Of a stretch of 64,000 bases of DNA, positions 15,632 to 60,122 are shown in pieces. Below the pieces are notes generated by a model. It was not told the DNA's origin. It worked only from the letters and a program-made list of their open reading frames with translations, and searched no databases. The stretch's first letter is position 1; each line of letters starts with the position of its first letter. Position numbers and translations under genes: made by a program. The stretch lies in the IMG/VR virus record IMGVR_UViG_3300033412_000008; one strand, given 5' to 3'. The DNA comes from a virus.

Positions 15632-16291
15632 GTGAGTCAATTCAAAGCGTGGCCCAAGATTCCGCGGCTCAACCGCGACTGCGTCGTGACTGAGAAGATC
15701 GACGGCACCAACGGCGCCGTCATCGTGGAGACGATGGAGCACGAGGGCGACTACACCGATGACGCCGTCGCAATAGTCCAGGCGCCCGACGATGTCTGGT
15801 ACGCCGTCTACGCGCAGAGCCGGAAGCACCTTCTTCAGCCGGGGAAGCAGTCCGACAACTTCGGCTTCGCCGGGTGGGTGAAGGAGAACGCTCTCGCCCT
15901 AGCGGCCGGTCTGGGAGAGGGCTACCACTTTGGCGAGTGGTACGGCTCAGGCATTCAGCGCGCCTACGGCCTCGACCACAAGCGCTTCGCGCTGTTCAAC
16001 GTTGGCCGCTGGCACGACCAGCAGGCCAACGGCTGCGGCCCTGACGTGGTGCCAGAGTGCTGCTCGGTGGTGCCGGTGCTCGCCGTTGGCGCCTTCAAGC
16101 CCGAGACGTGGGATGCCGCCCTCGGCGACCTCGCAGCCGACGGCAGCGCCGCGGCGCCGGGCTTCGACAACCCCGAGGGGATCGTCGTCTTCCACTCGGC
16201 CGCCCGGCAGTCGTTCAAGGTGACGCTAGAGGGCGATGAGTCGCCGAAGGGCGTCTACAAGGGGATGCACTCAGGCGAGGCGGCCGCATGA
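15632..16291 (+). CDS. RNA ligase (Rnl2-like nucleotidyltransferase domain)
   Basis: TEKIDGTNG, GEWYG, FALFN, PEGIVV. Confidence 0.8.
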   Translation: MSQFKAWPKIPRLNRDCVVTEKIDGTNGAVIVETMEHEGDYTDDAVAIVQAPDDVWYAVYAQSRKHLLQPGKQSDNFGFAGWVKENALALAAGLGEGYHFGEWYGSGIQRAYGLDHKRFALFNVGRWHDQQANGCGPDVVPECCSVVPVLAVGAFKPETWDAALGDLAADGSAAAPGFDNPEGIVVFHSAARQSFKVTLEGDESPKGVYKGMHSGEAAA

Positions 16292-16506
16292 AGCGTTGGC
16301 TTGGGAGTATTCTTCCTGGTGTGGTAATAGCGCTTGCCTTCAGTGTCGCTAGTCACATTGAGGATTCGATCTGGCATTTTGTCGCTTTGTGGGCAGCGTT
16401 CATGCTTCTTCAAATATTCTTTGTTCAGCGGTTTCCGCGGGCCGTAGCGCTGGAGTACGCATTGAAATTGAAGCCTGGACAGAAAGTTGAGGCTGAAGGT
16501 AAGTGA
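16288..16506 (+). CDS. Small membrane protein
   Basis: Two hydrophobic helices. Confidence 0.5.
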   Translation: MKRWLGSILPGVVIALAFSVASHIEDSIWHFVALWAAFMLLQIFFVQRFPRAVALEYALKLKPGQKVEAEGK

Positions 16507-16763
16507 AACATCCGATCCAGCACTTCGAGGCGATGAAGTGGCAGGACAAGGTCTTCTCGGTGGGGGAGATAGTCTTTCTTATCGGATTGATACCTTCACT
16601 GCTTAGTGACCATAAGCCCGCGGCTCTGACGAGCTTCATGACGGCAGCGATGTTGTATTCCTTTCTGCTCGTCTACGCTAGCTATAAACTGTGGGTAACG
16701 TTCGTACTTGGCGCCCTTACTGCGACCATCTGGCTCGCACTCGGTATCCAGGTGGCCGCATGA
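16503..16763 (+). CDS. Small membrane protein
   Basis: Three hydrophobic segments. Confidence 0.55.
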   Translation: MKHPIQHFEAMKWQDKVFSVGEIVFLIGLIPSLLSDHKPAALTSFMTAAMLYSFLLVYASYKLWVTFVLGALTATIWLALGIQVAA

Positions 16764-17038
16764 CAGTGCGTGAGTTTCTTTCCCAGCTCCAAGAAGCCCT
16801 CGACAGGGCAGCCTCTCGTAGGCTTTCGAACAAGGAGGTCATTGTCTCCTTTATCGCTCCCAGCTCGGGGTTCTGTGGGCCAACTATTCGGCCGAAGTTC
16901 TTGGGTTACACGGACGAGACGAAGACCATCACGAAGGGCGTTCCGGCGGAAGGTCGTTATGGCCTGACGCGCACTCAGGTCGAACGCCTGCTCGAAGCCT
17001 TCAACGTGACGCTCCCGCCGGAGAGCGAGTTCGCATGA
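16760..17038 (+). CDS. Hypothetical protein
   Basis: ATGA coupling. Confidence 0.5.
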   Translation: MTVREFLSQLQEALDRAASRRLSNKEVIVSFIAPSSGFCGPTIRPKFLGYTDETKTITKGVPAEGRYGLTRTQVERLLEAFNVTLPPESEFA

Positions 17039-17250
17039 GCGATAGCGCCCAGACAGCCGACGGTTGCCGCCGCTGCACGATCTGCGCGCTCTCGTTGCCC
17101 AACGACCCCGCGTGGGAGAAGTGCCCGAAATGCGGGGAGACAACCGACATCATCGTGAACGCAGGCCCGAACACGACGGCCGCCGAGGCTACGTCGCTAC
17201 TGCGGGCGCGTGAATTTGAGGAATATCTGGAGAAGGAGGGACGGACATGA
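17035..17250 (+). CDS. Small zinc-ribbon protein
   Basis: CTIC and CPKC. Confidence 0.5.
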   Translation: MSDSAQTADGCRRCTICALSLPNDPAWEKCPKCGETTDIIVNAGPNTTAAEATSLLRAREFEEYLEKEGRT

Positions 17251-17555
17251 TTGCAAATATCGCACTGGACTACACCGAGTGGGCGCCCCCGCTGTACATC
17301 GACGCAATCCGCATAGACATTGACACCTACGTCGCACAGCATGCTCGCTACCCAGCCAAGATTGTGCTGTGGGTTCACCAGTGGGACTTTCTCGTAAAGC
17401 AACACAAACACCTTATGCCGAAGTACATCGTGACGGAGGCGAAGTTCACGGGCAATGGAATTAACTTCTCCGCGCGCCCAGCAGAGTCAAGCGACGGCGG
17501 CCGTATCTGGGGAATTAAGGTAGAGGTTCGCGATCCAAAGGAGCACGCTCCATGA
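17247..17555 (+). CDS. Hypothetical protein
   Basis: ATGA coupling, AAGGAGG RBS. Confidence 0.5.
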   Translation: MIANIALDYTEWAPPLYIDAIRIDIDTYVAQHARYPAKIVLWVHQWDFLVKQHKHLMPKYIVTEAKFTGNGINFSARPAESSDGGRIWGIKVEVRDPKEHAP

Positions 17556-17854
17556 TTGAACCCGTGTCTCAATGCAAAGAGTTGGCGAAGGATCAATTTC
17601 CAGGTGATCCTGAACCGGATGGTCGCATCCATTGGCGTATTAATCGAGAAATGGAAATTGCTGAACAACTCGCTCTAGACATATTGACGCATGACGTAGG
17701 TAAAGTCTGGTATGCAGGCGCTCTCAGGGACGCAATTTACACTTCGCCTACTTGGGACATTGCCGAATCTTCGTGTATTAGTTTGGCACTCAATCGTATG
17801 GAGAAGCAGGGCAAAATTGAGGTAGATAAGGAAGGAATAGTGTTCTTGCCATGA
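17552..17854 (+). CDS. Hypothetical protein
   Basis: ATGA coupling. Confidence 0.45.
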   Translation: MIEPVSQCKELAKDQFPGDPEPDGRIHWRINREMEIAEQLALDILTHDVGKVWYAGALRDAIYTSPTWDIAESSCISLALNRMEKQGKIEVDKEGIVFLP

Positions 17855-18513
17855 TTGAAGCTCCCCCGAATCCGTGGCAGACTGAGGATAGCTACCGCCA
17901 CCTGTGCGGTACCTTTCCTGCGCTGCGTGACTGGAGCTGCCTAGAGGTTTGGCGCGGAAGCATCGCTCACGGCACGTACGTCCCGAACGACGACCCGCTG
18001 TCGATTGACGACAAGGACTTGATCGGAATCTGTATCCCGCCTGCGGAATACTACGTTGGGTTGCGTCAGTTCGGCAGCCGGGGGACGGAAGAAATCCAGA
18101 GTGACCCCTGGGATGTGGTGGTCTACGAGCACCGCAAGGCGCTCCGCCTCCTGGCGAAGGGCAACCCGAACATGCTCTGCATGTTGTGGGCGCCGCCCGA
18201 GTTCACCACGTACTACACGGCCGCCGGGGAGGCGCTGCTGGCCTGCACCGATAAGGACGTGATAGAGCGTGCAGCAACGTTGCTAGAGGTTAATCTTCGC
18301 GGCCCATATCAACAGAAAAATCACCACAAGGAGTATTGGACGTTTCGTCTAGCAGCGCGCGACGATGTCCTAGCGTGGTGTCATCGTCTGCGGCCACTTA
18401 TGGGCGTACGCCGCCAGGAACAAATCGACACAGTAATTGCCGCAGATAAGGAATATCCTCGGCGGCGGACTGGTGTCCATACGGGAAGGAAGAACGCATG
18501 GCAGAGCAGCTAA
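17851..18513 (+). CDS. Truncated Pol-beta-type nucleotidyltransferase fused to a LAGLIDADG C-terminal fragment
   Basis: RGSIAHG..DDKD..GNPN, followed by TDKDVIERAA..LRPLMGVRRQEQID, which is similar to the C-terminal half of ORF 49270-49698. Confidence 0.65.
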   Translation: MIEAPPNPWQTEDSYRHLCGTFPALRDWSCLEVWRGSIAHGTYVPNDDPLSIDDKDLIGICIPPAEYYVGLRQFGSRGTEEIQSDPWDVVVYEHRKALRLLAKGNPNMLCMLWAPPEFTTYYTAAGEALLACTDKDVIERAATLLEVNLRGPYQQKNHHKEYWTFRLAARDDVLAWCHRLRPLMGVRRQEQIDTVIAADKEYPRRRTGVHTGRKNAWQSS

Positions 18514-20453
18514 GCGACCGGCGGGTTATTGACTTCGATGTAGAGACGACTGGCCTACAGTGGTACGCGCATGACTTGTTTATGGCGCAGTTCTTCGATC
18601 CAGAAGACGAGGAGTGCCTCCAGTATCCGACACACTGTCCGAACTGTGACGGACTAGTCAACGAAGAAGGCTGCTGCGACGGCAGCGCGGCCGCCGAGGT
18701 GGGTGGCTGTGGCTTCGACATCGAGCCGGAACCGAAAGCTGTTATTTTCCGACACCCCGAGGATAAAGAGGAAATTCAACGTTGGTTGGATAAGGATGCG
18801 TACTTCCGGGCACACAACGCGAAGTTTGACAACCATCATTTGGAGTCGGTCGGATACAAACTACCCCCGCGGGATCGCTGGGAAGATTCCATGCTCGTCG
18901 CCCACGTCCTTGACGAGCGGCGCAGTGTCGCGCTCCAGGCAGTCGGCGACAAGATGTTCGGTACGGAGCCGTGGCCGGAGGGCGCGGGCGTCGAGCTGGA
19001 GAAAGCCGTCAAGGTGTGGGTTAGCAACGAGAACAAGAAACGCCGGAAACACAGTAAGGACACCGGCGAGAAGTTCGTCATCGCCAACTACTCCGACGTG
19101 CCTGACGAGGACATGGAGGTCTACGCCGCACACGACGTGGAACTCCAGCGCCGCATCTGCGACGCCATCGTGCCGCAGTTGGAGGCCAACCCAGACCTCG
19201 TCGGCGTGTACGAGCTGGAGCGGAAAGTGCTATCGGCTCTCTACGACGTGGAGTCGCTTGGGATGGGTATCGACGAGGCCGGGGCGAAAGCGCTGGAGGT
19301 CGAACTCGAAAATGAACTGACCAAAATCCGGCTCGACTTGTTCGAGCTGACCGGCAACGACGAATTCAACCCGAACTCTCCAATCCAACTCGAAGCTGCC
19401 TTTCATGCGCGCGGCGTAGACCTCAGCCACATTGAGAAGTCAGGGAAGACTGGCCGCCGGTCGATGGCGGCCGACGTGCTGGAGGGCCTGGACGACGACC
19501 TCGCCCGCAAGATTGATGACTTCCGCGGCGCCGACAAGATGATGTCTACCTACGTCTGGCCGCTGCTGCACGACCAGCCCGACACCGACAAGGGCTACGT
19601 CTACGCAAGCCTCCACACCGATGGACGCCTCCACACGGACCTCCGCCAGGTCGGCGCGCGCACCGGGCGGATGTCGTCCAGCCCGAACGTGCAGAACTGG
19701 CCGCGCGACGACCTTCGGATGCGCCATCTGGTCGTCGCCGACGAAGGCAAGAAGCTCGTCGCCGTTGACCTCGACAGCATCGAGCTTCTGCTGTTCGCGG
19801 CCTTCCTCGGCCGGGACTCCATCATCCTCAACATGATGAAAGACCCTGATGCCGACATGCACACCCACACGGCCAACATGATCGGCCTCAAACCGCGCGA
19901 CCGCGGGTTGGGCGTGGTGGAATCGCCGCGGCAGCGGGGCAAGAAGTTCAACTACGAACGCATCTACGGCGGCGGCATCAAAGCCATCAAGAAATGGCAC
20001 GGTGTGGATACGCCGACAGCCAGGAAATGGCTGAACCGTTACTACGAGGCGTACCCGGAAGTCGAAGAATTCCAAGACATGATCGAGTTGCGCCTCGAAG
20101 AACGTGGGTTCGTGAAAACTCCCTGGGGGCGGCGTCACCGCGCGTACAATCCACAGTTCGCGGAGCGCGAGGCGTACAAGTTCGTCAACTACCTCGTCCA
20201 GGGTTCGGCGGCCGACCTGTTCAAGGAAGCGGTCGTGCGGACTCACGAGGCGGGCATCCCGATGATCGCCCTGACACACGACGAGATTCTGGCGGAAGTA
20301 GACGCGGCCGACGCGGAGGACGCGAAGCGCGAAATCCAGAGCTTCATGTGCGACTTTCCCAAGATCAACAAGCTGATTCAGGTCACGGCTGAGGGCGACG
20401 TGGTTGACCGCTGGTCCCAGGCGAAAGACCCCGACTTCGATCCGGGGTGGTGA
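18498..20453 (+). CDS. polA: DNA polymerase family A with 3'-5' exonuclease domain
   Basis: DVETTG, HNAKFD, RTGRMSSSPNVQN, DLDSIE, RGKKFNYERIYG, THDE. Confidence 0.95.
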   Translation: MAEQLSDRRVIDFDVETTGLQWYAHDLFMAQFFDPEDEECLQYPTHCPNCDGLVNEEGCCDGSAAAEVGGCGFDIEPEPKAVIFRHPEDKEEIQRWLDKDAYFRAHNAKFDNHHLESVGYKLPPRDRWEDSMLVAHVLDERRSVALQAVGDKMFGTEPWPEGAGVELEKAVKVWVSNENKKRRKHSKDTGEKFVIANYSDVPDEDMEVYAAHDVELQRRICDAIVPQLEANPDLVGVYELERKVLSALYDVESLGMGIDEAGAKALEVELENELTKIRLDLFELTGNDEFNPNSPIQLEAAFHARGVDLSHIEKSGKTGRRSMAADVLEGLDDDLARKIDDFRGADKMMSTYVWPLLHDQPDTDKGYVYASLHTDGRLHTDLRQVGARTGRMSSSPNVQNWPRDDLRMRHLVVADEGKKLVAVDLDSIELLLFAAFLGRDSIILNMMKDPDADMHTHTANMIGLKPRDRGLGVVESPRQRGKKFNYERIYGGGIKAIKKWHGVDTPTARKWLNRYYEAYPEVEEFQDMIELRLEERGFVKTPWGRRHRAYNPQFAEREAYKFVNYLVQGSAADLFKEAVVRTHEAGIPMIALTHDEILAEVDAADAEDAKREIQSFMCDFPKINKLIQVTAEGDVVDRWSQAKDPDFDPGW

Positions 20454-20454
20454 C

Positions 20455-20658
20455 GTGGCGCGTAAGCTAGGCCGTGGCTACAAGGAGCTGATTAAGGCGG
20501 CCGAAGCCGACGGTTGGACGCTGGAGCAGACGAAGAAGGGCTATCGGATGAAGCATCCCAACGGCAAAGACACAGTTGGCTTCCACGGCACGCCATCTGA
20601 CAACCGCGCCCTCAAGAACGCACGCGGCGACTTCCGTAGGGCAGGTTTGGACGTATGA
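20455..20658 (+). CDS. hicA: HicA-like toxin-family protein
   Basis: KELIKAAEADGW..MKHPNG..VGFHGTPSD matches the HicA pattern. Confidence 0.7.
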   Translation: MARKLGRGYKELIKAAEADGWTLEQTKKGYRMKHPNGKDTVGFHGTPSDNRALKNARGDFRRAGLDV

Positions 20659-20883: not shown

Positions 20884-21093
20884 ATGCGGCAAATAATGAA
20901 TGAATCGCTTGAGCCAGCGCAGCAGGCTAGTGTCTGTGAGCACGCTGCCCTTTGTCTTCTTGACGATTCTGATCTATCTCCTGATGAGATTGCGCAGGCG
21001 CAAGCCTATGCGACCATAGCGCAGTCTCTTCGTTTGCGCGGCTGTGAAGAATGGCTTGCTTCAATCCGCGACGATGGAGTCGGCGTTGGATAG
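20884..21093 (+). CDS. Hypothetical protein
   Basis: AAGGAG RBS. Confidence 0.45.
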   Translation: MRQIMNESLEPAQQASVCEHAALCLLDDSDLSPDEIAQAQAYATIAQSLRLRGCEEWLASIRDDGVGVG

Positions 21094-21589
21094 GTACGAA
21101 GCACTCAAGCACGCAATCAAGGCACACGGCAATGCGCTCGATAAGTGCGGCCAGCTCTACGTGCTGCATCCAATAGCAGTTGCCGAAGCCGTTGAACGAA
21201 ATTGGCATTTGGTAGCAGGCGCGGATCTCTACGGCGCTCTCCCTGACCGTACAAGTATCGAGACCGCCATTATCATTGCGCTTCTTCATGATGTCTGGGA
21301 GGACACTGACTACGATATTCCAACAGGGACGCTAACTAACGCGCAGTACACCATCTTCCAAGCCGTCACGCGGTTGCCGGATGAATCTTACCGGCAATAT
21401 ATCGAGGGTATTTGCAATTGCGAGCATTCAATTGCCATCATCGTTAAGCTCGCAGACCTCTGGCATAATCTTCAGCCAGAGCGGCAGGATTGTCTTCCGA
21501 TATTCGAAGCTATTAGTCTGCGCGACCGCTACCTGACTTCGCGGGATATGCTCTGGGAGGCGCTGGGACAGAAATGGTGGCCTGCATGA
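21074..21589 (+). CDS. Small HD hydrolase of RelA/SpoT (p)ppGpp-hydrolase (Mesh1-like) type
   Basis: AIKAHG..YVLHPIAVA, ALLHDVWEDT, VKLADLWHNL. Confidence 0.7.
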   Translation: MESALDRYEALKHAIKAHGNALDKCGQLYVLHPIAVAEAVERNWHLVAGADLYGALPDRTSIETAIIIALLHDVWEDTDYDIPTGTLTNAQYTIFQAVTRLPDESYRQYIEGICNCEHSIAIIVKLADLWHNLQPERQDCLPIFEAISLRDRYLTSRDMLWEALGQKWWPA

Positions 21590-21915
21590 GTACTATTGTT
21601 ATTCACAAGCGCAATCAGCAGCCCGGTGACGTATACATTGGGCGGCCGTCGAAGTGGGGCAACCCATTCGTCATCGGTCCAGATGGCGACCGCGATGAAG
21701 TCATTAGTAAGTACCGCTACTGGATAGAGGATCGACCGGAGCTGCTGGCCGCCCTCTCTGAGCTGAAGGGCAAGCGGCTCGTCTGCTACTGCGCCCCAAA
21801 GCCCTGTCACGGCGATGTGCTCGCGGAGTTGGCGGACGAAGTTGATCCCGAGTTCTCCAAGCGGATGCGGGAGTTGGAAGACGAAGCATTTCTAAACGGA
21901 ACAGGAGGAACATGA
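21586..21915 (+). CDS. DUF4326-type protein
   Basis: DVYIGRPSKWGNPF..LKGKRLVCYCAPKPCHGDVL. Confidence 0.8.
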   Translation: MSTIVIHKRNQQPGDVYIGRPSKWGNPFVIGPDGDRDEVISKYRYWIEDRPELLAALSELKGKRLVCYCAPKPCHGDVLAELADEVDPEFSKRMRELEDEAFLNGTGGT

Positions 21916-22406
21916 TGTACTGGCTTTGCGTAGACCCTGGCGAGACAACAGGCTGGTCGATCTGGAAGGACGGCGACCTGATCCTTGCCGACCAGACTCC
22001 GATGTGGGAGTTCATCGACATGGTCGATGCAACGCTCCTCGGCCCATCTTCAGAGGTCACAGCGCGGCCGGGGTGTGGGCACAAGGGCATCTTCACACCA
22101 GACGGTGAGCTGGTTGAGCTAAACGCGATGATCGTCGAGGACTGGCTGCTCTACCCGTGGGTCATTCGCGACGGCGGCCTCGACTTCGACAAATGCCGGA
22201 CGGCGCGCGCCATCGGCGCCCTAACGCTGCTTTGTCGCCAGCATGGCGTCAAACTCGTCTTCCAGGGCGCCGATATCAAGAAGGGCGCCCAGGCGGCTGG
22301 GGCGGAAAACTTGTATCTAGAACCAGTACATGAGAATCGTCACGCCAACGACTCCATTCAGCACGGCTGCTATTATTTGGCGAGGAATGGAAGCCCGCCA
22401 ACGTGA
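21912..22406 (+). CDS. RuvC-like Holliday junction resolvase
   Basis: VDPGETTGWS, IVED, RHANDSIQH. Confidence 0.7.
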   Translation: MMYWLCVDPGETTGWSIWKDGDLILADQTPMWEFIDMVDATLLGPSSEVTARPGCGHKGIFTPDGELVELNAMIVEDWLLYPWVIRDGGLDFDKCRTARAIGALTLLCRQHGVKLVFQGADIKKGAQAAGAENLYLEPVHENRHANDSIQHGCYYLARNGSPPT

Positions 22407-22809
22407 ATCTCCATATCGTAATGCTAGGTGTTCAGTCGATGGCTGTACACGAACGGCTTCACGTAAGTGGCTATGCAGCATGCACTATCAACGCAAGCGG
22501 AAGCGTGGGAGCGTAAATCCGTTGCCGCATAAGGCACCAAATGGAGCGGGACATACGCGCGCTGATGGATATCGTTACCGGCATATAAATGGTCGGTATC
22601 GGCTTGAGCACCGCGTGATTATGGCAGAGCATATTGGGCGTGATCTTTTGCCTACGGAGCGCGTGCATCATATCAACGGCGCTCGAAACGATAATCGCGT
22701 TGAGAATCTTGAGCTATGGTCAACTGACCATCCAAATGGCGGCCGCGTAGTTGATCTTGTCGCCTGGGCGCGGCGGGTTCTGGCGCAATACGGTGATGAG
22801 CATGCTTGA
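22387..22809 (+). CDS. HNH homing endonuclease
   Basis: CSVDGC, LEHRVIM, VHHINGARNDNRVENLELW. Confidence 0.85.
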   Translation: MEARQRESPYRNARCSVDGCTRTASRKWLCSMHYQRKRKRGSVNPLPHKAPNGAGHTRADGYRYRHINGRYRLEHRVIMAEHIGRDLLPTERVHHINGARNDNRVENLELWSTDHPNGGRVVDLVAWARRVLAQYGDEHA

Positions 22810-25171: not shown

Positions 25172-25309
25172 ATGAGTCCCCACGACATCATTCAGAAGGG
25201 GAAGCAGCGCTGGGCTATCATCTGGTGCCCCGAGAGGCGGCCTACGCAGGAGGCCGCTCAGCGGGAGATTAGGCGCCAAAAAAGCCGCGACCAGAGCCGC
25301 CGCCCGTAA
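25172..25309 (+). CDS. Small leaderless hypothetical protein
   Basis: TGC-TACGCT 7 nt before ATG. Confidence 0.45.
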   Translation: MSPHDIIQKGKQRWAIIWCPERRPTQEAAQREIRRQKSRDQSRRP

Positions 25310-27707
25310 CGAAGTCGCCGAGGCCAGTCCAGACCTCCGGGCGGGCCATGATGGCGGCCGGGGAGTCCGCGACCGCAGGCTCGTTGCGCACCAGAATGGC
25401 CTCGCGCAGGCGCGCCTCGTCTGTGGGGTCGTCGCGTTCGATGGTGACAATCTCAACGCCCTGGCCGCCCTCGTGGACGCGCCCCCAATGCGCGAGCATC
25501 TTGGCGGCGACCATGTCGTCGTGCCCGGTGGCCGCCTCGAACTGGTAGCGCCCGTTAGCCGTCAGCGTGAACTCGTAGCTCTCGAACTCCTCGCGCATGT
25601 CGCTGAGGACGCACGCGCGGCCGTGCTCCATGTCGGCGGCCAGGAGGCGGGCCATCTGCTCCTTCGACTGGTTCGTGAATTTGACGGGCGTCACGTCCAC
25701 CCCGGCGGCCGTCAGGTTGTCGTAGACCACGTCGCCGAGGCCCGTGGAGTCGATCATCGCGGTGACGCTCTCGACGCCGGGGGCGTCTTCCAGCTCGGCG
25801 ATGGCGTAGGCGATGCGATTCTGCTGGGTCGGCCAGTCGATCTGGTTGAAGCGCTCGAAGTAGCAGGGCATTCCGTCGTCTTCGCGGTCGGCGGTGATGA
25901 CGGTGAAGTCCTCCTGCTTCGCCAGGTCGATCCCGACGAAGACGTTACCGCGCGGCTCGACAATCTCGTCGATGAGGGCGCCGGGGCGCTCCAGGCCGAG
26001 GCCGAAGATCGAGGCGCCAGCGGCCAGGAATTCGGCCATAATCTCCTGCCGGAAGATGATGGTCGGGAGTTCGTCTTCGGCAGCGTCCGTCTCCTCCTGT
26101 GGGACGAAGGGGTTGGCGGTCTGTGGGAAGCGCCATGACTCGTAGCCGGGCTTGCCTTCCTGACCGAGCTTCCACATTTTCCAGAACCAGTTGTGTCCAC
26201 GCGGCGTGCTGATGATGAACGCCTCACCGCCGGTGTCCATGAGGGTCGGCCGGATGAGCTGCTGCCAGACGTTGTCGGGAATCAGGGCTGCCTCGTCTAC
26301 GACGACGAAGTCCACACCCTCGCCAGCCAGCGAGTCGGGTGAGCCGCCCGAGTAGAACTCGATCATCGTGCCGTTCTTGAGCTGAAGAATCTTCGTGGTG
26401 CTGGTGTACGCCGGGGCAGGCTTCGCCAGCCATGACGGAGGAATCTGGTTGACGACCTCACGGTAGCCACGGGAGACGTTCTTGTAGGTGTTGTGGCTGA
26501 GTAGATATCCAGTTGTTACGTAAAGATGGTCAGTAGCCTCTACTTCTATACAAACCATGTCACATTTATCATTTGTGGGGCGAATATCAATGATTTGCCG
26601 CCGGGAAGCGCGAGGTACGGCGCTCCAGTCTACTGACTTACGAGCACAGTAAAATGGGCAAGTATCCGGCATTGATACCCTTGTACGCCATATACGACCA
26701 TCATGCATAACCGTTGCGCGGCCGCCTAGTGAGCGCGTCAAATCAGCGACGCCACGCGCAAGGCGCTCAGACTTTGATGTAAATTGAACGCCGCCAGATG
26801 CGTTACCGCCGTCAGTATCAAGTAGTCCCGCTAGGACATCGGCGCGATATTTTGCTGGCGCTTGTAGTACAACCATAGGAAGAAACTTAGATTTGGAGCG
26901 TACATCTACTAGACCAACTTCGGAAAGCTGGCGGCGTAGACGTGAAGCATTAGATATCCCGAAATTTATTGGCCCATAACATTTCCATGTGGCACCAGTG
27001 TCTTCTGCTGCATCGCGTACACGAGCAACGATGTCTGCATCTTGATTGGCAAATAGAAGCGTTTGTTTCTCACGAATACAACCATCCCCCAGCATTGCGC
27101 CTAGTAGATAGCCATCAACTTTGGGCGCCTTACCATCAGGAACAGGCGATGCATTATCAATTGAAAACCGACTACGTCCACATGGTTGTCGAAGACCGCG
27201 CTTAAGTATCTCTTTAGTTTTCAATGTACGCGCCGCATTGTGGCCCAACTGCCGCACACGCCAAAGATGATCGTCGGCGCAGCGCACAACTACACCATCC
27301 GACATTTCTACTTCCCATACCTCGCGTTCGGAATGGGCATATACACCCAAAACTTTAGTTGGCTGTCCATCACTACCAATTACAGCGTCGCCAACTTTCA
27401 ATGCTCCCATCGTGCCCCAACCATTCGGCGTGAGAACTGGCTCGTCAAGTGGTTGTGCATTAGCGATCCACCAGATCATTTGGTTCGGCCTGCGCGCCCG
27501 GCGCACAATTTCGTGGGCGGCGACCTTCGTCTTCCCCCAGCGCCGCCCAGCGGCCAGAGTGCGGAAGCGAGCCTCCGAGTTGAGGATGTTTTCCTGGCCG
27601 CCGGAGTGCGGGATCAGAAGGCGGCTGCGGAGTTCGTTGCGGGCGCGCTCTAGCGCCTCTGGGTTGTCGCGGCCTAGTGCTTCGACCCGCTGACGCTCAT
27701 TCGGCAT
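25269..27707 (-). CDS. terL: Terminase large subunit containing an intein
   Basis: AGRRWGKT, VVVDEAA, IISTPRG, GIDLA, HDDMV. Confidence 0.92.
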   Translation of the reverse strand: MPNERQRVEALGRDNPEALERARNELRSRLLIPHSGGQENILNSEARFRTLAAGRRWGKTKVAAHEIVRRARRPNQMIWWIANAQPLDEPVLTPNGWGTMGALKVGDAVIGSDGQPTKVLGVYAHSEREVWEVEMSDGVVVRCADDHLWRVRQLGHNAARTLKTKEILKRGLRQPCGRSRFSIDNASPVPDGKAPKVDGYLLGAMLGDGCIREKQTLLFANQDADIVARVRDAAEDTGATWKCYGPINFGISNASRLRRQLSEVGLVDVRSKSKFLPMVVLQAPAKYRADVLAGLLDTDGGNASGGVQFTSKSERLARGVADLTRSLGGRATVMHDGRIWRTRVSMPDTCPFYCARKSVDWSAVPRASRRQIIDIRPTNDKCDMVCIEVEATDHLYVTTGYLLSHNTYKNVSRGYREVVNQIPPSWLAKPAPAYTSTTKILQLKNGTMIEFYSGGSPDSLAGEGVDFVVVDEAALIPDNVWQQLIRPTLMDTGGEAFIISTPRGHNWFWKMWKLGQEGKPGYESWRFPQTANPFVPQEETDAAEDELPTIIFRQEIMAEFLAAGASIFGLGLERPGALIDEIVEPRGNVFVGIDLAKQEDFTVITADREDDGMPCYFERFNQIDWPTQQNRIAYAIAELEDAPGVESVTAMIDSTGLGDVVYDNLTAAGVDVTPVKFTNQSKEQMARLLAADMEHGRACVLSDMREEFESYEFTLTANGRYQFEAATGHDDMVAAKMLAHWGRVHEGGQGVEIVTIERDDPTDEARLREAILVRNEPAVADSPAAIMARPEVWTGLGDFVTGGGSGRGFFGA
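26490..27458 (-). mobile_element. Class 3-type intein with LAGLIDADG endonuclease (323 aa)
   Basis: Starts AQPLDEPVLTP, block B DDHLW, block F MVCIEV, ends SHN/T; LGAMLGDG and LAGLLDTDG motifs; low GC. Confidence 0.88.
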
Positions 27708-28272: not shown

Positions 28273-28515
28273 TTAAATGCCGTTCTCGTACTGCTTCGCC
28301 TTCTCTAGCGCGGGGACAAGGTACTTCGTCTCCTCGCGAACGAGGAAGGCGGCCGCGGTGCCGATGGCGCCGTTGATGAGCTGAGCGACGAGTGGGTCCG
28401 GGTTGTAGCCCGGAATCACGAGCTGGAGGACAGTCGAGACTGCGTAGCCCAGCGCGCCCACAATCACCTTCTTTGCGACCGGCGGATTCGAGGTCGTGGC
28501 TGCTATGGAAATCAC
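28273..28515 (-). CDS. Holin
   Basis: Two TM helices, charged C-terminus, AAGGAGG RBS before GTG; follows the lysins. Confidence 0.7.
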   Translation of the reverse strand: MISIAATTSNPPVAKKVIVGALGYAVSTVLQLVIPGYNPDPLVAQLINGAIGTAAAFLVREETKYLVPALEKAKQYENGI

Positions 28516-28522
28516 CCCCTCC

Positions 28523-42456: not shown

Positions 42457-42458
42457 GC

Positions 42459-49085: not shown

Positions 49086-49160
49086 ATCCGGGGGCAGGGT
49101 TCGAACCTGCACTTCGAGGTTCAGGGCCTCGCTGGCTGCCAATTACCTTATCACCCCGGA
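49086..49160 (-). tRNA. tRNA-Gln(CTG), atypical
   Basis: TCCGGGG/CCCCGGA acceptor, CGAGG-CCCTGAA-CCTCG, GCAGG-TTCGAAC-CCTGC; C33 and extra nt before the D-stem. Confidence 0.7.
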
Positions 49161-49161
49161 G

Positions 49162-49238
49162 TGGACTAGCTCGGATTCGAACCGAGGTCACGACTGCGCC
49201 CACGTCGTGGGCGCAACTCGTCTTTTCCTGTCTAGCCC
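49162..49238 (-). ncRNA. Mini-tmRNA (tRNA-like domain only)
   Basis: GGGCTAG/CTAGTCC-A with G3.U70, stemless D-loop ACAGGAAAAGAC, P2-like hairpin, GAC linker, CTCGG-TTCGAAT-CCGAG. Confidence 0.75.
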
Positions 49239-49244: not shown

Positions 49245-49263
49245 ATCTTATCGAGTTGGTCAA
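49245..49263 (-). promoter_or_regulatory. TTGACC-N7-TAAGAT promoter of the mini-tmRNA
   Basis: -10 ends 6 nt before G1 of the RNA. Confidence 0.65.
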
Positions 49264-49269
49264 GGTTTA

Positions 49270-49698
49270 TCAAGCTGCAATATTCAAACGAATATACTCC
49301 TGCCGCTTTGCTTGGCAGCAGGCTTCGCACCGACATCCTTTCTTATACATATGAGTAGTCCCACAGCGCGCAGGCTGTCGAGGGCGCGCCACAAATCCAT
49401 TCAGCGCGGAATCAATTTGAGCTTGGCGCCGCTTGCTCATATACGGGCGCAGTTCATGCATCATTTTGGCTGCCGGGCTTCCTTGCAAACGCACATACCA
49501 GGGCTGCTTATGGTGCGCAATCTGCCGCCGTCCCACTTGAATTTTCCTGTCCCACAGCGCTGCGACACGTTCAATTACATCTAGGTCAGTCATGGACACG
49601 ATAACAATCGGATTATTCGGAGAAGATGGCGATCCAGCCATAAATGATCCCTCTCCCTCCAAGAGTCCAACCAACCAATGAAAATCAGCCGCATTCAC
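49270..49698 (-). CDS. Free-standing LAGLIDADG homing endonuclease
   Basis: WLVGLLEGEGSF; C-terminal CGT..Y..GCRC..C; leaderless GTG after TGC-TATGCT. Confidence 0.8.
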   Translation of the reverse strand: MNAADFHWLVGLLEGEGSFMAGSPSSPNNPIVIVSMTDLDVIERVAALWDRKIQVGRRQIAHHKQPWYVRLQGSPAAKMMHELRPYMSKRRQAQIDSALNGFVARPRQPARCGTTHMYKKGCRCEACCQAKRQEYIRLNIAA

Positions 49699-49801
49699 AA
49701 ATAAAGCATAGCATAAATTGGGAGCATGGGATTCAAGCGCGTTGATGCTCAATCCCGAACGGAGAGCGCTACCAGATTACGCTACGGCCCGAAAACGAAG
49801 T

Positions 49802-49960
49802 TTAGCGCTTACGGCTGGGCTTGCCGCGGCGGTACGAGTCCACCGTGACGCGCGACTTACCGCGATTCGGGCCGCGCGGGGACCGCGAGTGCTTACGCAC
49901 CCCGACAGCATTACCCGAGCCGGACTTCCGGCGCCGCTTGGCGCGCCCACGGGTCGCCAT
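49802..49960 (-). CDS. Small very basic protein (52 aa)
   Basis: MATRGRAKRRRKSGSGNAVGVRKHSRSPRG...; TAATG coupling; not in the ORF track. Confidence 0.55.
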   Translation of the reverse strand: MATRGRAKRRRKSGSGNAVGVRKHSRSPRGPNRGKSRVTVDSYRRGKPSRKR

Positions 49961-50057
49961 TAGGCAGTAACGAGATGTTCAAGCGGCCCCGGAGCACTCT
50001 CGGAGCGCGGCCGGAAGCGCGTAGTAAAACCGAAAATAGTGTCAAGGATTTCGATCA

Positions 50058-50234
50058 TTAGTTCTCCTCTGGCGGACCATTGTCCTTGTGAATAACGATA
50101 TAATCGCCGACCTCTAGCTTACTCGCAGTGGCCGCCTCAGCCACATCAGCCGCAGGGATAATATTAATGGCAAGCGCGCCATAACCGGTATTGGCTGGTT
50201 TAATACCTTGAATCCTGTAGGTTCCGTCGTCCAT
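50058..50234 (-). CDS. Small hypothetical protein (58 aa)
   Basis: MDDGTYRIQGIKP...; coupled to a 32-aa ORF at 49960-50058. Confidence 0.4.
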   Translation of the reverse strand: MDDGTYRIQGIKPANTGYGALAINIIPAADVAEAATASKLEVGDYIVIHKDNGPPEEN

Positions 50235-53188: not shown

Positions 53189-53262
53189 GGCGACCCGCGG
53201 GGATCGAACCCGCATTTGCCTGGACCACAACCAGGAGCTATTTCCTATTCGGCCAGGGCCGC
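53189..53262 (-). tRNA. tRNA-His(GTG)
   Basis: CCTGG-TTGTGGT-CCAGG, T-arm, C73; -1 base is T. Confidence 0.8.
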
Positions 53263-53263
53263 A

Positions 53264-53334
53264 AGGCGCGAGAGAGGATTGAACTCTCGAAGACCGGGTT
53301 GCAACCGGCCGCCTTACCACTCGGCCATCGCGCC
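53264..53334 (-). tRNA. tRNA-Cys(GCA)
   Basis: GGCGCGA acceptor, TTGCAAC loop, U73. Confidence 0.9.
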
Positions 53335-53336
53335 AG

Positions 53337-53411
53337 TAGCGGGGGCGGGATTTGAACCCGCGTGACCGGCTTATGAGGCCGTGCTGGAACCAAACTCCAG
53401 TCCACCCCGCT
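53337..53411 (-). tRNA. tRNA-Met(CAT)
   Basis: AGCGGGG/CCCCGCT, CTCATAA loop; fMet-like body but lacks the three G-C anticodon-stem pairs. Confidence 0.85.
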
Positions 53412-53417
53412 GCCTAC

Positions 53418-53436: not shown

Positions 53437-53575
53437 ATCCAAATTCTGGAGAAATTTGGACTTCGCTTGGAGTTCCGGCGATGGTAGTCCGACCGGGGAC
53501 CATTTGGCAAGTTTTCTGGCGAGAAAACCTAACATCTTGATTCGTATGCTAGGCAAAGGAAATGAACCGTTATCA

Positions 53576-53622
53576 CATCTGTCAAGCGTACGTAAATGAT
53601 GCCTTACACCATCTGTCAAGCG
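53576..53622. repeat. 13-bp direct repeat CATCTGTCAAGCG x2 (34-bp period)
   Basis: 53576-53588 and 53610-53622, in the divergent intergenic region. Confidence 0.7.
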
Positions 53623-55797: not shown

Positions 55798-56234
55798 TGC
55801 CCGCGCCCGGTTGGACACCGCCGCCAAGTGCGAATGCGGGCGAAGGCGACTGTATGCGCCGAGCGCTGGCTTGCGTTGTCGGCGTCCATCCCGACGAGAT
55901 TGACTGGATCAGACCACGCAGCGGTGTTCCATTCTGGCCGCTCTATCGCGCGGAGGCTAAGCGGCTCGGATGGTACATGCGCATTCGGAACTTTGAAGCG
56001 ACAGGCGGAATCCGGTGGGGAGACGTAGCAAAGCCATCGGGTCTGTGGATCGGTGTCGTGCGAGGTCGCGGCGGCCGGACTACACACGCCGTGGTGTTCG
56101 ACGGCGACAAATTCCACTTTGGCGAGCAACACCGTCGCCGCCACCCCAACAAGCTATACAAGATCATAGAACTACATGAGCTATCCATGTGTGACAAGAA
56201 TCACATACGAAGCCCTGACCATCTGATAGCGTGA
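55797..56234 (+). CDS. Putative papain-like (C39-like) cysteine peptidase
   Basis: GDCMRRALAC and THAVVFDG. Confidence 0.45.
   Translation: MPAPGWTPPPSANAGEGDCMRRALACVVGVHPDEIDWIRPRSGVPFWPLYRAEAKRLGWYMRIRNFEATGGIRWGDVAKPSGLWIGVVRGRGGRTTHAVVFDGDKFHFGEQHRRRHPNKLYKIIELHELSMCDKNHIRSPDHLIA
56190..56232 (+). promoter_or_regulatory. CRP-like box plus -10
   Basis: TGTGA-CAAGAA-TCACA 56190-56205; TGA-TAGCGT 56227-56232. Confidence 0.7.
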
Positions 56235-58823: not shown

Positions 58824-59836
58824 TGCACCCGTACCACCACGTTAGGACGGAGGACGGCCGCGAGAGCTTGACGGTATTCATGCCGAGCGGTGCGCCCGTC
58901 GTCGCCACCGGGGACCATCCTCACTTCGCCGAGCTTTTGGAGGGCGCACAGTCGGATGCTTCCGCTGACGACCTTCGCAGCCTGGCGGACCTGAGCAACG
59001 CCGTCGCGCAGCACTTCGACACGCTGAGCGAGCGGGTAGCCGTCGCCAATGGCCGCGTTTACTTCGACGGTGACGAGGTCGATTCCACGATTACGCAACA
59101 GATTCGCCGCTGCCTGGACGATCCGGGCGTTGGCGACTGGCGGCCGCTCGTGCGGTTCATGGAAAACGTCGCGGCTAACCCGAATGAGCACTCGCGGGAA
59201 CAGCTTTTCGACTGGCTGCGGGACCGCGAGTTCACAATCACCACGAATGGCTGCTTCATCGCCTACAAGGGCGTCACGTCCGACGGCGAGGACAACTACG
59301 TGTCAAGTAGTCGCGGCCACGGCATCGTCAACGGCGAGCGTTACGAGGGGCAGCTACCCAACCCCGTTGGCGCTGCCGTCGAAATGCCGCGTAGCGACGT
59401 ACAGCACGACCCCGGCGTCGGCTGCCACACTGGCCTGCACGTCGGGACGTATGAGTACGCGCAGGGGTACGCGAGCGCGGCGCTGCTGACCGTTCTCGTT
59501 AATCCTCGCGACGTGGTTAGCGTTCCAACCGATTGCGAGGCAGCCAAGATGCGCGTCTGCCGGTACGTCGTCTCAGACGACGAACCGACGGCGCCGCAGG
59601 AATCGGCCGCCATCGCAGACGAGGGCGAGGTCTACACAGACACGCTCGCCCCGGACGCCGACTATGACGGCTATGACGAATTCGTGGCGACCGGGGAAGT
59701 CCGGTACGCACGGCTGGGCGAGTTCTACACCCTGGGCGAGGGACAGACCTGGGCTGGAAAGGTCTGCCGGGCGATGTACGACCACGACTCAGGGCCGGTA
59801 GATCACATCTTGGTCCCGAGGTACCCGAGGGACTAG
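58823..59836 (+). CDS. rIIB: rIIB-like protein
   Basis: FTITTNGCFIAYKGV, MPRSDV, CHTGLHVG, VNPRDVVSVP.D..KMRVCRY. Confidence 0.8.
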   Translation: MHPYHHVRTEDGRESLTVFMPSGAPVVATGDHPHFAELLEGAQSDASADDLRSLADLSNAVAQHFDTLSERVAVANGRVYFDGDEVDSTITQQIRRCLDDPGVGDWRPLVRFMENVAANPNEHSREQLFDWLRDREFTITTNGCFIAYKGVTSDGEDNYVSSSRGHGIVNGERYEGQLPNPVGAAVEMPRSDVQHDPGVGCHTGLHVGTYEYAQGYASAALLTVLVNPRDVVSVPTDCEAAKMRVCRYVVSDDEPTAPQESAAIADEGEVYTDTLAPDADYDGYDEFVATGEVRYARLGEFYTLGEGQTWAGKVCRAMYDHDSGPVDHILVPRYPRD

Positions 59837-59842
59837 GGGGAC

Positions 59843-59876
59843 GGGGCGCTCTGTGACGGGAATCACAGAGCGCCCC
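59843..59876. promoter_or_regulatory. 14-bp hairpin whose core is a CRP-like box
   Basis: GGGGCGCTCTGTGA-CGGGAA-TCACAGAGCGCCCC. Confidence 0.65.
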
Positions 59877-60043
59877 ACAAATCTGTGATACAAATACTCC
59901 CACTTGACCGGGGCGCGCTCCCACGAAGCGAGCGTACGCAGGCAGCACCCTGCCCCGCGAATAATGAGGTGACTAGTCGGGCCGATCAAGCGACTGACTA
60001 GGGCGAACATAGAGGCCGTAAACCTTTGCCTCATTGTTCCGGT

Positions 60044-60122
60044 GGCGGCGCCGTGGCAGCACTAGCGTAGCCGGTGGCTCTACCCAGGGCCAGCCGTCGG
60101 GGTTCGATTCCCCGAGCCGCCA
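60044..60122 (+). ncRNA. tRNA-like RNA without anticodon loop
   Basis: GGCGGC/GCCGCC-A plus TCGGGG-TTCGATT-CCCCGA (12-bp top half); TGGCTCT-ACCC-AGGGCCA hairpin in place of the anticodon arm. Confidence 0.55.

What the first reader, a model, noticed from the sequence alone, without database searches (positions are those of the whole stretch)
15632..60122. Candidate coordinated system for taking over translation and stress control
One genome carries a TLD-only tmRNA, two more anticodon-less tRNA mimics, four tRNAs, an RNA ligase, a Pol-beta nucleotidyltransferase remnant, a SpoT/Mesh1-like HD hydrolase, an orphan HicA-like RNase and a HIT hydrolase. Each is seen in sequence; that they act together is inference. 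Together they could counter tRNA-cleaving defences, the stringent response and ribosome rescue.
Basis: inference. Interest (0 to 1): 0.65.

Follow-up and report, generated by a model that had tools for sequence, protein, structure and literature searches.

The report
Loose phage translation-protection gene kit
An uncultured soil phage really does carry most of the listed RNA-repair, tRNA-like and nucleotide-hydrolase genes, but comparison with other phages shows they come and go independently, so this is an ordinary, already described kind of accessory kit and not one coordinated system.

Summary
All listed elements exist, with corrections. The HIT gene (63202-63894) and one tRNA mimic (988-1066) lie outside the stated span. 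The Pol-beta gene is a dead-looking chimera of an RlaP core and half a homing endonuclease. The HicA-like protein has the HicA fold but lacks the catalytic histidine. The HD protein is a small alarmone hydrolase closest to the (p)ppApp hydrolase Aph1. The "TLD-only tmRNA" is real and conserved.

Two collinear relatives lack RlaP, carry 12-15 tRNAs instead of 4, and add RtcB and a DNA ligase. In public phage genomes, homologues of each protein sit in largely different phage groups. Of 78 other viral HD loci, none has the ligase, RlaP or HicA-like gene within 6 kb. Of 20 other TLD-bearing viral records of 30 kb or more, 3 have an RNA ligase and none the HD or HIT gene.

Only loose links remain. 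Four protein genes lie within 6 kb on one strand. The relatives have HD next to RtcB. RlaP tracks tRNA-rich phages.

The tRNA, ligase and RlaP kit is already described (PMC7824862). This scan has already reported the mini-tmRNA family on many other genomes.

The parts
15632..16291 (+). Small stand-alone ATP-dependent RNA ligase (nucleotidyltransferase domain, KIDGTN motif)
   Evidence: PF09414 at 1.1e-13. phrog_548 'RNA ligase' at 3.4e-24. Conserved in G1 (68% identity) and G2 (60%). No solved relative by sequence.
17851..18513 (+). Chimeric remnant: RlaP-type Pol-beta nucleotidyltransferase core (residues 33-128) fused to the C-terminal half of a LAGLIDADG-type homing endonuclease
   Evidence: PF10127 at 1.3e-12, but only model positions 27-113 of 249. 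phrog_388 on residues 35-130 and the endonuclease phrog_5046 on residues 131-214. blastp 1e-12 to ORF 49270-49752. The nucleotidyltransferase part is absent from G1 and G2.
20404..20658 (+). HicA-fold small protein without the canonical catalytic histidine and with no HicB partner found
   Evidence: PF07927 at 22.7 bits, below the cut-off of 27. phrog_2089 at 4e-13. The AlphaFold model has HicA toxins as its best fold matches. The catalytic position reads KGY here, KGL/KGI in G1/G2 and G-H in annotated actinophage HicA-likes.
21044..21589 (+). Small alarmone hydrolase (RelA/SpoT-type HD domain), closest to the Aph1 (p)ppApp hydrolase
   Evidence: Best solved relative 7smg at 2.6e-8, then Rel/SpoT hydrolase domains. 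phrog_990 at 2.3e-25. Catalytic motifs conserved in W, G1 and G2. Phage homologues are annotated as SpoT-like.
21574..21915 (+). DUF4326 gene overlapping the end of the HD gene.
   Evidence: PF14216 at 8.1e-29. Only the last 26 or so residues have a counterpart in G1 and G2.
49162..49238 (-). TLD-only mini-tmRNA: alanine-identity acceptor stem (G3:U70, A73), stemless D-loop analogue ending in GAC, closed 10-bp hairpin, T arm
   Evidence: Orthologues lie at the same place in G1 (55814-55897) and G2 (50023-50104), with compensatory acceptor-stem changes. It shares its design with phage DS6A 28478-28557 (PMC4131195). Three pattern-family members reach Rfam's tmRNA gathering score.
49245..49273 (-). 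Sigma-70-like promoter (TTGATA, 17-nt spacer, TAAGAT) ending 6 nt before the first base of the TLD
   Evidence: TTGAC/TTTAC and TAnACT hexamers lie at the same position in G1 and G2.
49086..49160 (-). Atypical tRNA-Gln(CUG) with C32 and C33, one base after the TLD
   Evidence: Rfam tRNA 33 bits. Differs at 1 of 69 nt from the G2 copy. G1 has a canonical Gln(CUG) in the same position.
49270..49752 (-). LAGLIDADG-type homing endonuclease ORF occupying the place where G1 and G2 carry 2-3 tRNA genes
   Evidence: LAGLIDADG-like motif LLEGEGSF. Homologous to the G2 ORF 19735-20121, which matches PF00961 weakly. Synteny.
53189..53412 (-). tRNA array: His(GTG), Cys(GCA) and a CAU-anticodon tRNA with an unusual D arm
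   Evidence: ARAGORN and Rfam, plus manual reading. G1 has 9 tRNAs and G2 has 6 at this locus.
60044..60122 (+). tRNA-like RNA (6-bp acceptor stem, T arm, no anticodon loop) between rIIB and the DUF7178 gene
   Evidence: Fold. Best Rfam match is mascRNA-menRNA at 24.9 bits, below its threshold. G2 has a true tRNA-Leu(CAA) at this exact site and G1 has nothing.
988..1066 (+). tRNA-like RNA with the anticodon arm extended into a GAAA-capped hairpin (outside the stated span)
   Evidence: Rfam tRNA 37.5 bits. ARAGORN reads it as Ser(CGA). Fold. It resembles G2 53533-53621. There is no counterpart at this site in G1 or G2.
63202..63894 (+). HIT-family hydrolase (Hint/Fhit branch) with a 115-residue Cys/His-rich C-terminal extension (outside the stated span)
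   Evidence: PF01230 at 1.5e-12. HHIHVHV motif. Solved relatives are HIT, Fhit and Ap4A enzymes. G1 copy is 77% identical.

Best explanation
The window holds about 64 kb of the roughly 70-kb genome of an uncultured actinophage-like siphovirus. The listed elements are separate accessory genes that each help keep phage translation going. They are not parts of one machine.

Shown by sequence:
- An intact small RNA ligase.
- An intact RelA/SpoT-type small alarmone hydrolase.
- An intact HIT hydrolase.
- Four decoding tRNAs.
- A conserved, promoter-equipped, alanine-identity mini-tmRNA.

Inferred functions:
- The ligase reseals nicked tRNA.
- The HD enzyme degrades (p)ppApp or (p)ppGpp, or strips the 3' pyrophosphate that toxic alarmone synthetases add to tRNA.
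- The mini-tmRNA is alanylated and titrates SmpB or otherwise disturbs trans-translation.
- The tRNAs replace host tRNAs that are lost.

Decayed or repurposed parts:
- The RlaP gene is broken by homing-endonuclease traffic.
- The HicA-fold protein lacks its catalytic His and is more likely an RNA binder than an RNase.
- The two other tRNA-shaped RNAs sit at sites where tRNA genes turn over.

The set is reshuffled gene by gene between close relatives. It is an instance of the phage kit of tRNA provisioning and RNA repair described for large phages.
For: Close relatives. G1 and G2 are collinear with the window at 70-85% nucleotide identity.
- They keep the ligase, HD and HicA-like genes and the TLD plus Gln tRNA pair. 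G1 also keeps HIT.
- They lack RlaP.
- They carry 15 and 12 tRNAs against 4 here.
- They add RtcB and an ATP-dependent DNA ligase. G1 also adds an Rv2179c-like exoribonuclease. All of these are absent from the window.

Public phage genomes. tblastn hit sets for the five proteins fall in largely different phage groups. In a 19-genome matrix, no phage outside this lineage has more than 3 of the 5 proteins.
- 10 phages have one element.
- 5 have two, always RlaP plus one other, and all are 115 kb or larger.
- 1 has three.

Gene neighbourhood. Among 78 other viral HD loci, the counts within 6 kb are: RNA ligase 0, RlaP 0, HicA-like 0, HIT 2, RtcB 1.

TLD family. The family (42 distinct sequences in 64 viral contigs) has no tRNA nearby in 40 of 64 loci. 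Among 20 other TLD-bearing records of 30 kb or more, PF09414 is found in 3 (none of the 12 near-complete ones), the HD profile in 0 and HIT in 0.

Literature.
- Kit concept: PMC7824862, section 3.4.9.
- RlaP repairs RNA 3' ends: bioRxiv 10.64898/2025.12.29.696909.
- Small alarmone hydrolases reverse tRNA CCA pyrophosphorylation: 10.1101/2021.04.30.441581.
- A TLD-only tmRNA in phage DS6A, and a TLD that inhibits tmRNA: PMC4131195.
Against: - Four of the five protein genes lie on one strand within 6 kb, so co-expression in the replication module is likely.
- In G1 and G2 the HD gene overlaps or abuts RtcB, and the HicA-like gene follows the DNA ligase. This looks operon-like.
- All 8 RlaP-positive phages in my sample have 6 or more tRNAs, against 2 of 11 RlaP-negative ones. 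Some real functional coupling therefore exists within the kit.
- Phage DS6A combines a TLD-only tmRNA with RtcB and MazG, an analogous trio.
- My samples were picked through one element each and are not corrected for phylogeny or genome size.
- tblastn with single queries misses distant homologues.
- No function was tested.
Confidence: 0.7

Rival explanations
1. This phage lineage has a true RNA-repair operon just after the DNA polymerase gene: HD hydrolase, an exoribonuclease, RtcB, a ligase and the HicA-fold RNA binder. The window carries a rearranged, partly deleted version of it, with the PF09414 ligase and the RlaP remnant as a second repair pair upstream.
For: The order PolA, HD, (exoRNase), RtcB, DNA ligase, HicA-like is conserved in G1 and G2, with overlapping or abutting genes. 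RlaP was named for its linkage to RNA ligases, and here it lies 1.5 kb after one. I did not check that note.
Against: Outside G1 and G2, only 1 of 78 HD loci has RtcB within 6 kb and none has the ligase or the HicA-like gene. The window lacks RtcB. RlaP is truncated here and absent from the relatives. The region is a hot spot of small accessory genes and homing endonucleases, so adjacency may reflect insertion history.
Confidence: 0.2
2. One reading: all the elements form one coordinated programme that takes over translation, the stringent response and ribosome rescue.
For: All the elements touch tRNA, translation or nucleotide alarmones. All occur in one genome.
Against: The elements are independently distributed at every scale tested. 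They lie in at least four separate transcription contexts on both strands. One component is decayed and one lacks its catalytic residue.
Confidence: 0.05
3. This rival concerns only two elements and is compatible with the best explanation. The tRNA-shaped RNAs at 60044-60122 and 988-1066 may be decaying or remodelled tRNA genes, or RNase P/Z processing signals, with no role of their own in translation control.
For: G2 has a true tRNA-Leu(CAA) exactly where the window has the 60044 element, and G1 has nothing there. The 988 element has no counterpart at that site in G1 or G2. The window has lost most of the lineage's tRNAs, and a homing endonuclease sits where the relatives have tRNAs. The best Rfam match of the 60044 element is mascRNA, an RNase P/Z-processed tRNA-like RNA.
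Against: Both elements keep well-paired acceptor stems, T arms and a stable capped hairpin, which random decay would not preserve. The 988 design recurs in G2 with a different hairpin. An earlier follow-up (e1-5325111) judged it a selected mimic.
Confidence: 0.35

Closest known systems
RNA-repair and tRNA-provisioning kit of large and jumbo phages (Iyer, Anantharaman, Krishnan, Burroughs and Aravind 2021, PMC7824862, section 3.4.9)
   Same: It combines phage tRNAs, an ATP-dependent RNA ligase (the review notes divergent actinophage ligases outside Rnl1 and Rnl2), an RlaP nucleotidyltransferase, and calcineurin-like or HD phosphoesterases. The review reads these as answers to host attacks on the translation apparatus. 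The content varies from phage to phage.
   Different: This genome is only about 70 kb. Its RlaP is a remnant. No polynucleotide kinase was found in the window. The HD enzyme is of the alarmone-hydrolase type. The set also includes a mini-tmRNA and two further non-decoding tRNA mimics, which the review does not treat (the word tmRNA does not occur in it).
T4 Pnkp plus Rnl1 tRNA repair against the PrrC anticodon nuclease (named from established knowledge; also cited in PMC7824862)
   Same: A phage-encoded RNA ligase is assumed to reseal cleaved tRNA.
   Different: No end-healing kinase/phosphatase was found. The adjacent P-loop kinase is a dNMP kinase (phrog_139, 2.6e-37). The ligase is a 219-residue single-domain enzyme with no solved relative by sequence.
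'TLD only' tmRNA of mycobacteriophage DS6A (tmRNA Website tmID 11587; Hudson, Lau and Williams 2014, PMC4131195)
   Same: About 80 nt, a 7-bp acceptor stem with G3:U70 and A73, a stemless D-loop analogue ending in GAC, a closing hairpin in place of the pseudoknots and tag frame, and a T arm.
   Different: There is no sequence similarity beyond these shared features. Here the RNA is fused to a Gln tRNA gene inside the structural-gene block. The window's copy itself does not reach Rfam's tmRNA threshold.
Aph1 and other small alarmone hydrolases, including those that neutralise toxic alarmone synthetases (PMC10083569; 10.1101/2021.04.30.441581)
   Same: A single HD domain of about 150-180 residues with the RelA/SpoT hydrolase motifs. 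Phage- or prophage-encoded.
   Different: No cognate synthetase toxin lies next to it. The substrate is unknown. Pfam's HD_4 model did not report it at E 0.01 or better.
HicA toxins of HicAB toxin-antitoxin pairs
   Same: The alpha-beta-beta-beta-alpha fold. Actinophage homologues are annotated as 'HicA-like toxin'.
   Different: The catalytic His is replaced by Tyr, Leu or Ile. No HicB neighbour was found. The score is below Pfam's cut-off.

Membership tests
One coordinated, co-inherited multi-gene system | The components co-occur across genomes more often than expected | tested here: not met
   Matrix of 19 genomes. Disjoint tblastn hit sets. TLD-bearing records lack the HD and HIT genes.
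One coordinated, co-inherited multi-gene system | A conserved gene neighbourhood or operon | tested here: not met
   The elements are spread over 988-63894 on both strands. Among 78 other HD loci, 0 have the ligase, 0 RlaP and 0 the HicA-like gene within 6 kb. Only the lineage-specific HD-RtcB adjacency in G1 and G2 was found.
tmRNA (Rfam RF00023), TLD-only form | A 7-bp acceptor stem with G3:U70 and A73, a stemless D-loop analogue, and a T arm | tested here: met
   Across 42 family sequences the five unconstrained pairs are 95-100% canonical, with 3-5 pair types each.
tmRNA (Rfam RF00023), TLD-only form | Reaches Rfam's gathering score for tmRNA | tested here: not met
   The window's copy is listed only as a sub-threshold tRNA match at 20.3 bits. 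Three members of the same pattern family do reach it, at 62.7, 53.5 and 47.3 bits against a threshold of 47.
tmRNA (full length) | An mRNA-like domain with a resume codon, a tag reading frame and pseudoknots | tested here: not met
   The whole RNA is 77 nt, and a 10-bp hairpin with a 5-nt loop joins its two halves.
tmRNA (TLD-only) | Alanylation by AlaRS and binding of SmpB | not testable with these tools
   Needs biochemistry.
RlaP (PF10127) RNA-repair nucleotidyltransferase | A full-length two-domain protein | tested here: not met
   Only model positions 27-113 of 249 match. The rest of the ORF is homing-endonuclease sequence.
RlaP (PF10127) | The Pol-beta GS...DxD catalytic motif | tested here: met
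   The ORF reads GS, 15 residues, then DDKD (translation).
ATP-dependent RNA ligase (PF09414) | A nucleotidyltransferase domain over the curated cut-off, with the KxDG lysine | tested here: met
   52.2 bits against a cut-off of 27. KIDGTN motif.
T4-type tRNA repair pathway | A polynucleotide kinase/phosphatase partner | tested here: not met
   No such domain was found in the roughly 100 ORFs scanned. The neighbouring kinase is a dNMP kinase. About 6 kb of the genome lies outside the window. Five ORFs tested in the matching part of G1 gave no Pfam hit.
HicA toxin (PF07927) | Pfam gathering score | tested here: not met
   22.7 bits against a cut-off of 27.
HicA toxin | The catalytic histidine of the G(S)H motif | tested here: not met
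   Tyr in the window and in six close homologues, Leu or Ile in G1 and G2, His in annotated actinophage HicA-likes.
HicA toxin | The HicA fold | tested here: met
   The top Foldseek hits are 6g26, 4c26, 1whz, 4p78 and 6hpb, with TM 0.52-0.65 and probability up to 0.94. The E-values are weak, at 0.09 or more.
HicAB toxin-antitoxin pair | An adjacent HicB antitoxin | tested here: not met
   The neighbouring ORFs have no HicB match.
Small alarmone hydrolase (RelA/SpoT HD domain) | Conserved metal and catalytic motifs, and homology to characterised hydrolases | tested here: met
Small alarmone hydrolase | Substrate: (p)ppGpp, (p)ppApp or pyrophosphorylated tRNA | not testable with these tools
   Needs an enzyme assay.
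HIT superfamily | The histidine triad HxHxHxx and a Pfam score over the cut-off | tested here: met

The most novel reading that the evidence does not exclude
This lineage may deploy a set of non-decoding tRNA mimics as decoys or inhibitors for host factors that recognise the tRNA acceptor end. The set is the conserved alanine-identity mini-tmRNA plus two anticodon-less tRNA shapes. Candidate targets are SmpB/tmRNA, toxic alarmone synthetases that pyrophosphorylate CCA ends, and nucleotidyltransferase toxins. The HD hydrolase would then repair pyrophosphorylated tRNA 3' ends. Together this would be an acceptor-end protection strategy, distinct from the classical repair of the anticodon loop.
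Probability: 0.12. Interest if true: 0.7.

Novelty: new member of a known kind. Interest (0 to 1): 0.3.

Why it matters
Counting translation-related genes in one phage genome easily suggests a 'system'. Here the comparison shows a modular kit whose pieces are gained, lost and broken one at a time, often through homing-endonuclease traffic.

The result also gives concrete leads for bench work:
- An intact alarmone-hydrolase-type HD enzyme that sits next to RtcB in the relatives.
- A HicA-fold protein without the catalytic histidine.
- A promoter-driven mini-tmRNA fused to an unusual Gln tRNA.

It does not open a new class of mechanism.

Tried and rejected
- **Near and distant DNA searches of public phage genomes** with the tRNA region and with the TLD plus Gln unit found nothing useful.
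- **The DNA polymerase profile** found only the same two relatives in the viral contigs.
- **A whole genome for the window** is not held.
The 69-kb contig that encodes a HicA-like protein 91% identical to the window's (P0001) could therefore not be examined.
- **A covariance model of the TLD was not built.** The MAFFT alignment of the variable hairpin was poor. I used a descriptor scan and an IUPAC pattern instead.
- **Rejected: the P-loop kinase at 14798-15421 as the missing polynucleotide kinase.** It is a dNMP kinase (phrog_139, 2.6e-37).
- **Rejected: the TLD as merely a decayed tRNA-Ala.** G1 and G2 keep it alongside a normal tRNA-Ala(UGC), with compensatory changes.
- **Rejected: a short-spacer promoter for the TLD.** A standard promoter with a 17-nt spacer fits.
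- **Considered and set aside: hairpin inserts in the tRNA-like RNAs as introns** that the ligase would rejoin. No splice-like bulge-helix-bulge structure or restorable anticodon loop was seen on inspection.
- **HIT as an aprataxin-like partner of the ligase** is unsupported. Its solved relatives are Hint, Fhit and Ap4A enzymes.

Full report
**What the window is.** It has 58-64% G+C. Structural genes lie on the minus strand from about 25 to 52 kb: an intein-bearing terminase, lysis genes, a tape measure, a tail tube, the capsid, a protease and the portal. Early and replication genes lie on the plus strand on both sides: an SNF2 helicase, a dNMP kinase, a family A DNA polymerase, an AAA ATPase and rIIA/rIIB-like genes. 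No close relative exists among public phage genomes, and the capsid is only 26-29% identical to mycobacteriophage capsids. Two IMG/VR contigs are collinear relatives at 70-85% nucleotide identity. I call them G1 (69,851 bp) and G2 (63,647 bp). The end of the window maps to the start of G1, so the genome is about 70 kb and about 6 kb lies outside the window.

**The protein elements.**
- *RNA ligase, 15632-16291.* It matches PF09414 and phrog_548 and has the KIDGTN lysine motif.
- *Pol-beta ORF, 17851-18513.* It matches only positions 27-113 of the 249-position RlaP model. Its C-terminal half is homologous to the C-terminal half of the LAGLIDADG-type ORF at 49270-49752. At the same site G2 has an intact free-standing endonuclease of that type and G1 has nothing. 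It is a remnant created by homing-endonuclease traffic.
- *HicA-like ORF, 20404-20658.* It is below Pfam's cut-off. An AlphaFold model (pLDDT 83) has HicA toxins as its best fold matches. The catalytic histidine is Tyr here and in six close homologues, and Leu or Ile in G1 and G2, whereas annotated actinophage HicA-likes keep His. No HicB partner was found.
- *HD protein, 21044-21589.* It has intact RelA/SpoT hydrolase motifs. Its best solved relative is the (p)ppApp hydrolase Aph1, followed by Rel/SpoT hydrolase domains. Phage homologues are annotated as SpoT-like.
- *HIT gene, 63202-63894.* It lies outside the stated span. It has the histidine triad and resembles Hint, Fhit and Ap4A enzymes.

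**The RNA elements.** ARAGORN and Rfam agree on tRNA-His and tRNA-Cys. The third gene of that array has a CAU anticodon and an unusual D arm. At 49086-49238 two genes lie one base apart, and a standard promoter (TTGATA, 17-nt spacer, TAAGAT) ends 6 nt upstream of the first.

The first of the two genes (49162-49238) has G1-C72, G3:U70 and A73, a stemless D-loop analogue ending in GAC, a 10-bp closed hairpin and a T arm. The second is a Gln(CUG)-type tRNA with C32 and C33. It differs at one base in 69 from the G2 copy.

G1 and G2 carry the same alanine-identity RNA directly 5' of their Gln tRNA. Their acceptor stems show compensatory changes and their central hairpins differ. Both also keep a normal tRNA-Ala(UGC), so the element is not a decayed tRNA-Ala.

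A descriptor scan found the same design in mycobacteriophage DS6A at 28478-28557. The tmRNA Website lists that sequence as 'TLD only', and the paper notes that a similar molecule strongly inhibits tmRNA (PMC4131195).

A pattern taken from the three copies finds 64 viral contigs. Of these, 63 have a perfect acceptor stem. There are 42 distinct sequences, with 95-100% canonical pairing and 3-5 pair types at the five pairs the pattern left free. Three members reach Rfam's tmRNA gathering score end to end. The window's copy itself does not. This scan has already reported this family on many other genomes, so it is not new here.

The element at 60044-60122 sits where G2 has a true tRNA-Leu(CAA) and G1 has nothing. 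Its best Rfam match is the tRNA-like mascRNA, below threshold. The element at 988-1066 lies outside the span, has no counterpart at that site in the relatives, and resembles an odd gene in G2's tRNA array.

**Do they act together?** I tested this at four scales.

*1. Close relatives.* The ligase, the HD and HicA-like genes and the TLD plus Gln pair are shared by both, and HIT by G1 (the G2 contig ends before that region). RlaP is absent from both. They have 15 and 12 tRNAs against 4 here. Both have the order PolA, HD, RtcB, ATP-dependent DNA ligase, HicA-like, and G1 also has an Rv2179c-like exoribonuclease. The window lacks RtcB and that ligase, and its order is PolA, HicA-like, a small ORF, HD, DUF4326.

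*2. Public phage genomes.* tblastn hit sets for the five proteins fall in largely different groups:
- HD: Streptomyces phages of about 185-200 kb, Rhodococcus phages, pneumococcal prophages and enterobacterial myoviruses.
- Ligase: small Streptomyces, Arthrobacter and Microbacterium phages, 52-kb mycobacteriophages and giant Caulobacter phages.
- RlaP: 80-kb mycobacteriophages of the Bongo type, and Gordonia and Bacillus phages.
- HicA-like: 40-kb Microbacterium phages and Gordonia phages.
- HIT: 110-kb and 164-kb mycobacteriophages.

In a matrix of 19 genomes, no phage outside the lineage has more than three of the five. Ten have one. Five have two, always RlaP plus one other, and all of these are 115 kb or larger. 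One has three. RlaP does track tRNA-rich genomes: all 8 RlaP-positive phages have 6 or more tRNAs, against 2 of 11 negative ones. By my own arithmetic the one-sided hypergeometric p is about 6e-4.

*3. Neighbourhood.* Within 6 kb of 78 other viral HD genes there is no ligase of this type, no RlaP and no HicA-like gene. There are two HIT genes and one RtcB, and 14 loci have a tRNA.

*4. The TLD family.* Forty of 64 loci have no tRNA nearby, and none carries any of the protein elements in its flank. Among 20 other TLD-bearing records of 30 kb or more, 12 of them at least 90% complete, PF09414 occurs in 3 (none of them among the near-complete records), the HD profile in 0 and HIT in 0.

**Reading.** What remains is a loose, co-directional cluster in the replication module and a lineage-specific HD-RtcB adjacency.

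The kit concept is published: phage tRNAs plus RNA ligases, RlaP and phosphoesterases as an answer to host attacks on the translation apparatus, with content that varies between phages (PMC7824862). RlaP adds one or two nucleotides to damaged RNA 3' ends. Some small alarmone hydrolases reverse the pyrophosphorylation of tRNA CCA ends by toxic alarmone synthetases. That gives the HD enzyme a plausible direct link to tRNA, but it is an inference.

DS6A pairs its TLD-only tmRNA with RtcB and MazG. This is an analogous trio, but a single case.

**Limits.** No function was tested. Samples were chosen through single elements. Single-query tblastn misses remote homologues. G2 is truncated. About 6 kb of the genome is unseen.

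Noticed in passing
window 25269-27707 (-): The large terminase carries a LAGLIDADG domain between its N-terminal part and its ATPase and nuclease domains, which is probably an intein. The relatives align across a gap of about 970 nt that exists only in the window (26492-27460).
   Followed up: partly
window 17851-18513, 22330-22809, 25269-27707, 38862-39311, 49270-49752: At least five homing-endonuclease-type genes or fragments (LAGLIDADG and HNH) are scattered through the genome. Two coincide with places where the relatives have other genes: tRNAs at about 49.3-49.8 kb and an intact endonuclease at about 18 kb. Endonuclease traffic appears to drive gene loss here.
   Followed up: partly
L012 6950-9972 (G1) and L016 2623-4885 (G2): Between the HD and HicA-like genes the relatives carry RtcB and an ATP-dependent DNA ligase. 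G1 also carries an Rv2179c-like 3'-5' exoribonuclease. All are missing from the window. The longest G1 reading frame over RtcB is 554 residues against 461 in G2, but homology to the G2 RtcB starts only at residue 106.
   Followed up: partly
window 49086-49160 (-) and G2 49950-50018: A Gln(CUG)-type tRNA with C32 and C33 in place of the near-universal U33. The two phages differ at 1 of 69 nt although their genomes are only about 70-75% identical nearby. G1 has a normal UUCUGAG loop.
   Followed up: partly
G1 59426-59498 (-); L120 8207-8353 and L143 5425-5571: ARAGORN reports tRNA genes with two-base 'anticodons' (six-nucleotide loops) inside several phage tRNA arrays, including the close relative G1.
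   Followed up: no
window 63547-63894 (+): The HIT protein has a C-terminal extension of about 115 residues, rich in Cys, His and Trp, with no family match. It is conserved in G1.
   Followed up: no
window 1142-2401 (+): A calcineurin-like metallophosphoesterase with an N-terminal helix-turn-helix starts 76 nt after the tRNA-like RNA at 988-1066. It is 81-82% identical in G1 and G2. It could be an RNA-end-healing enzyme or an ordinary phage phosphatase.
   Followed up: no
window 32312-33844 (-): The distal tail protein carries a beta-propeller insert (YWTD/LDL-receptor class B repeats and Vgb-lyase-like matches).
   Followed up: no
L139 1217-1295, L157 5872-5956, L123 668-754: TLD-only RNAs in unrelated viral contigs score above Rfam's tmRNA gathering threshold, with the whole internal part of the model deleted. 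Standard annotation could therefore detect some members of the family.
   Followed up: yes
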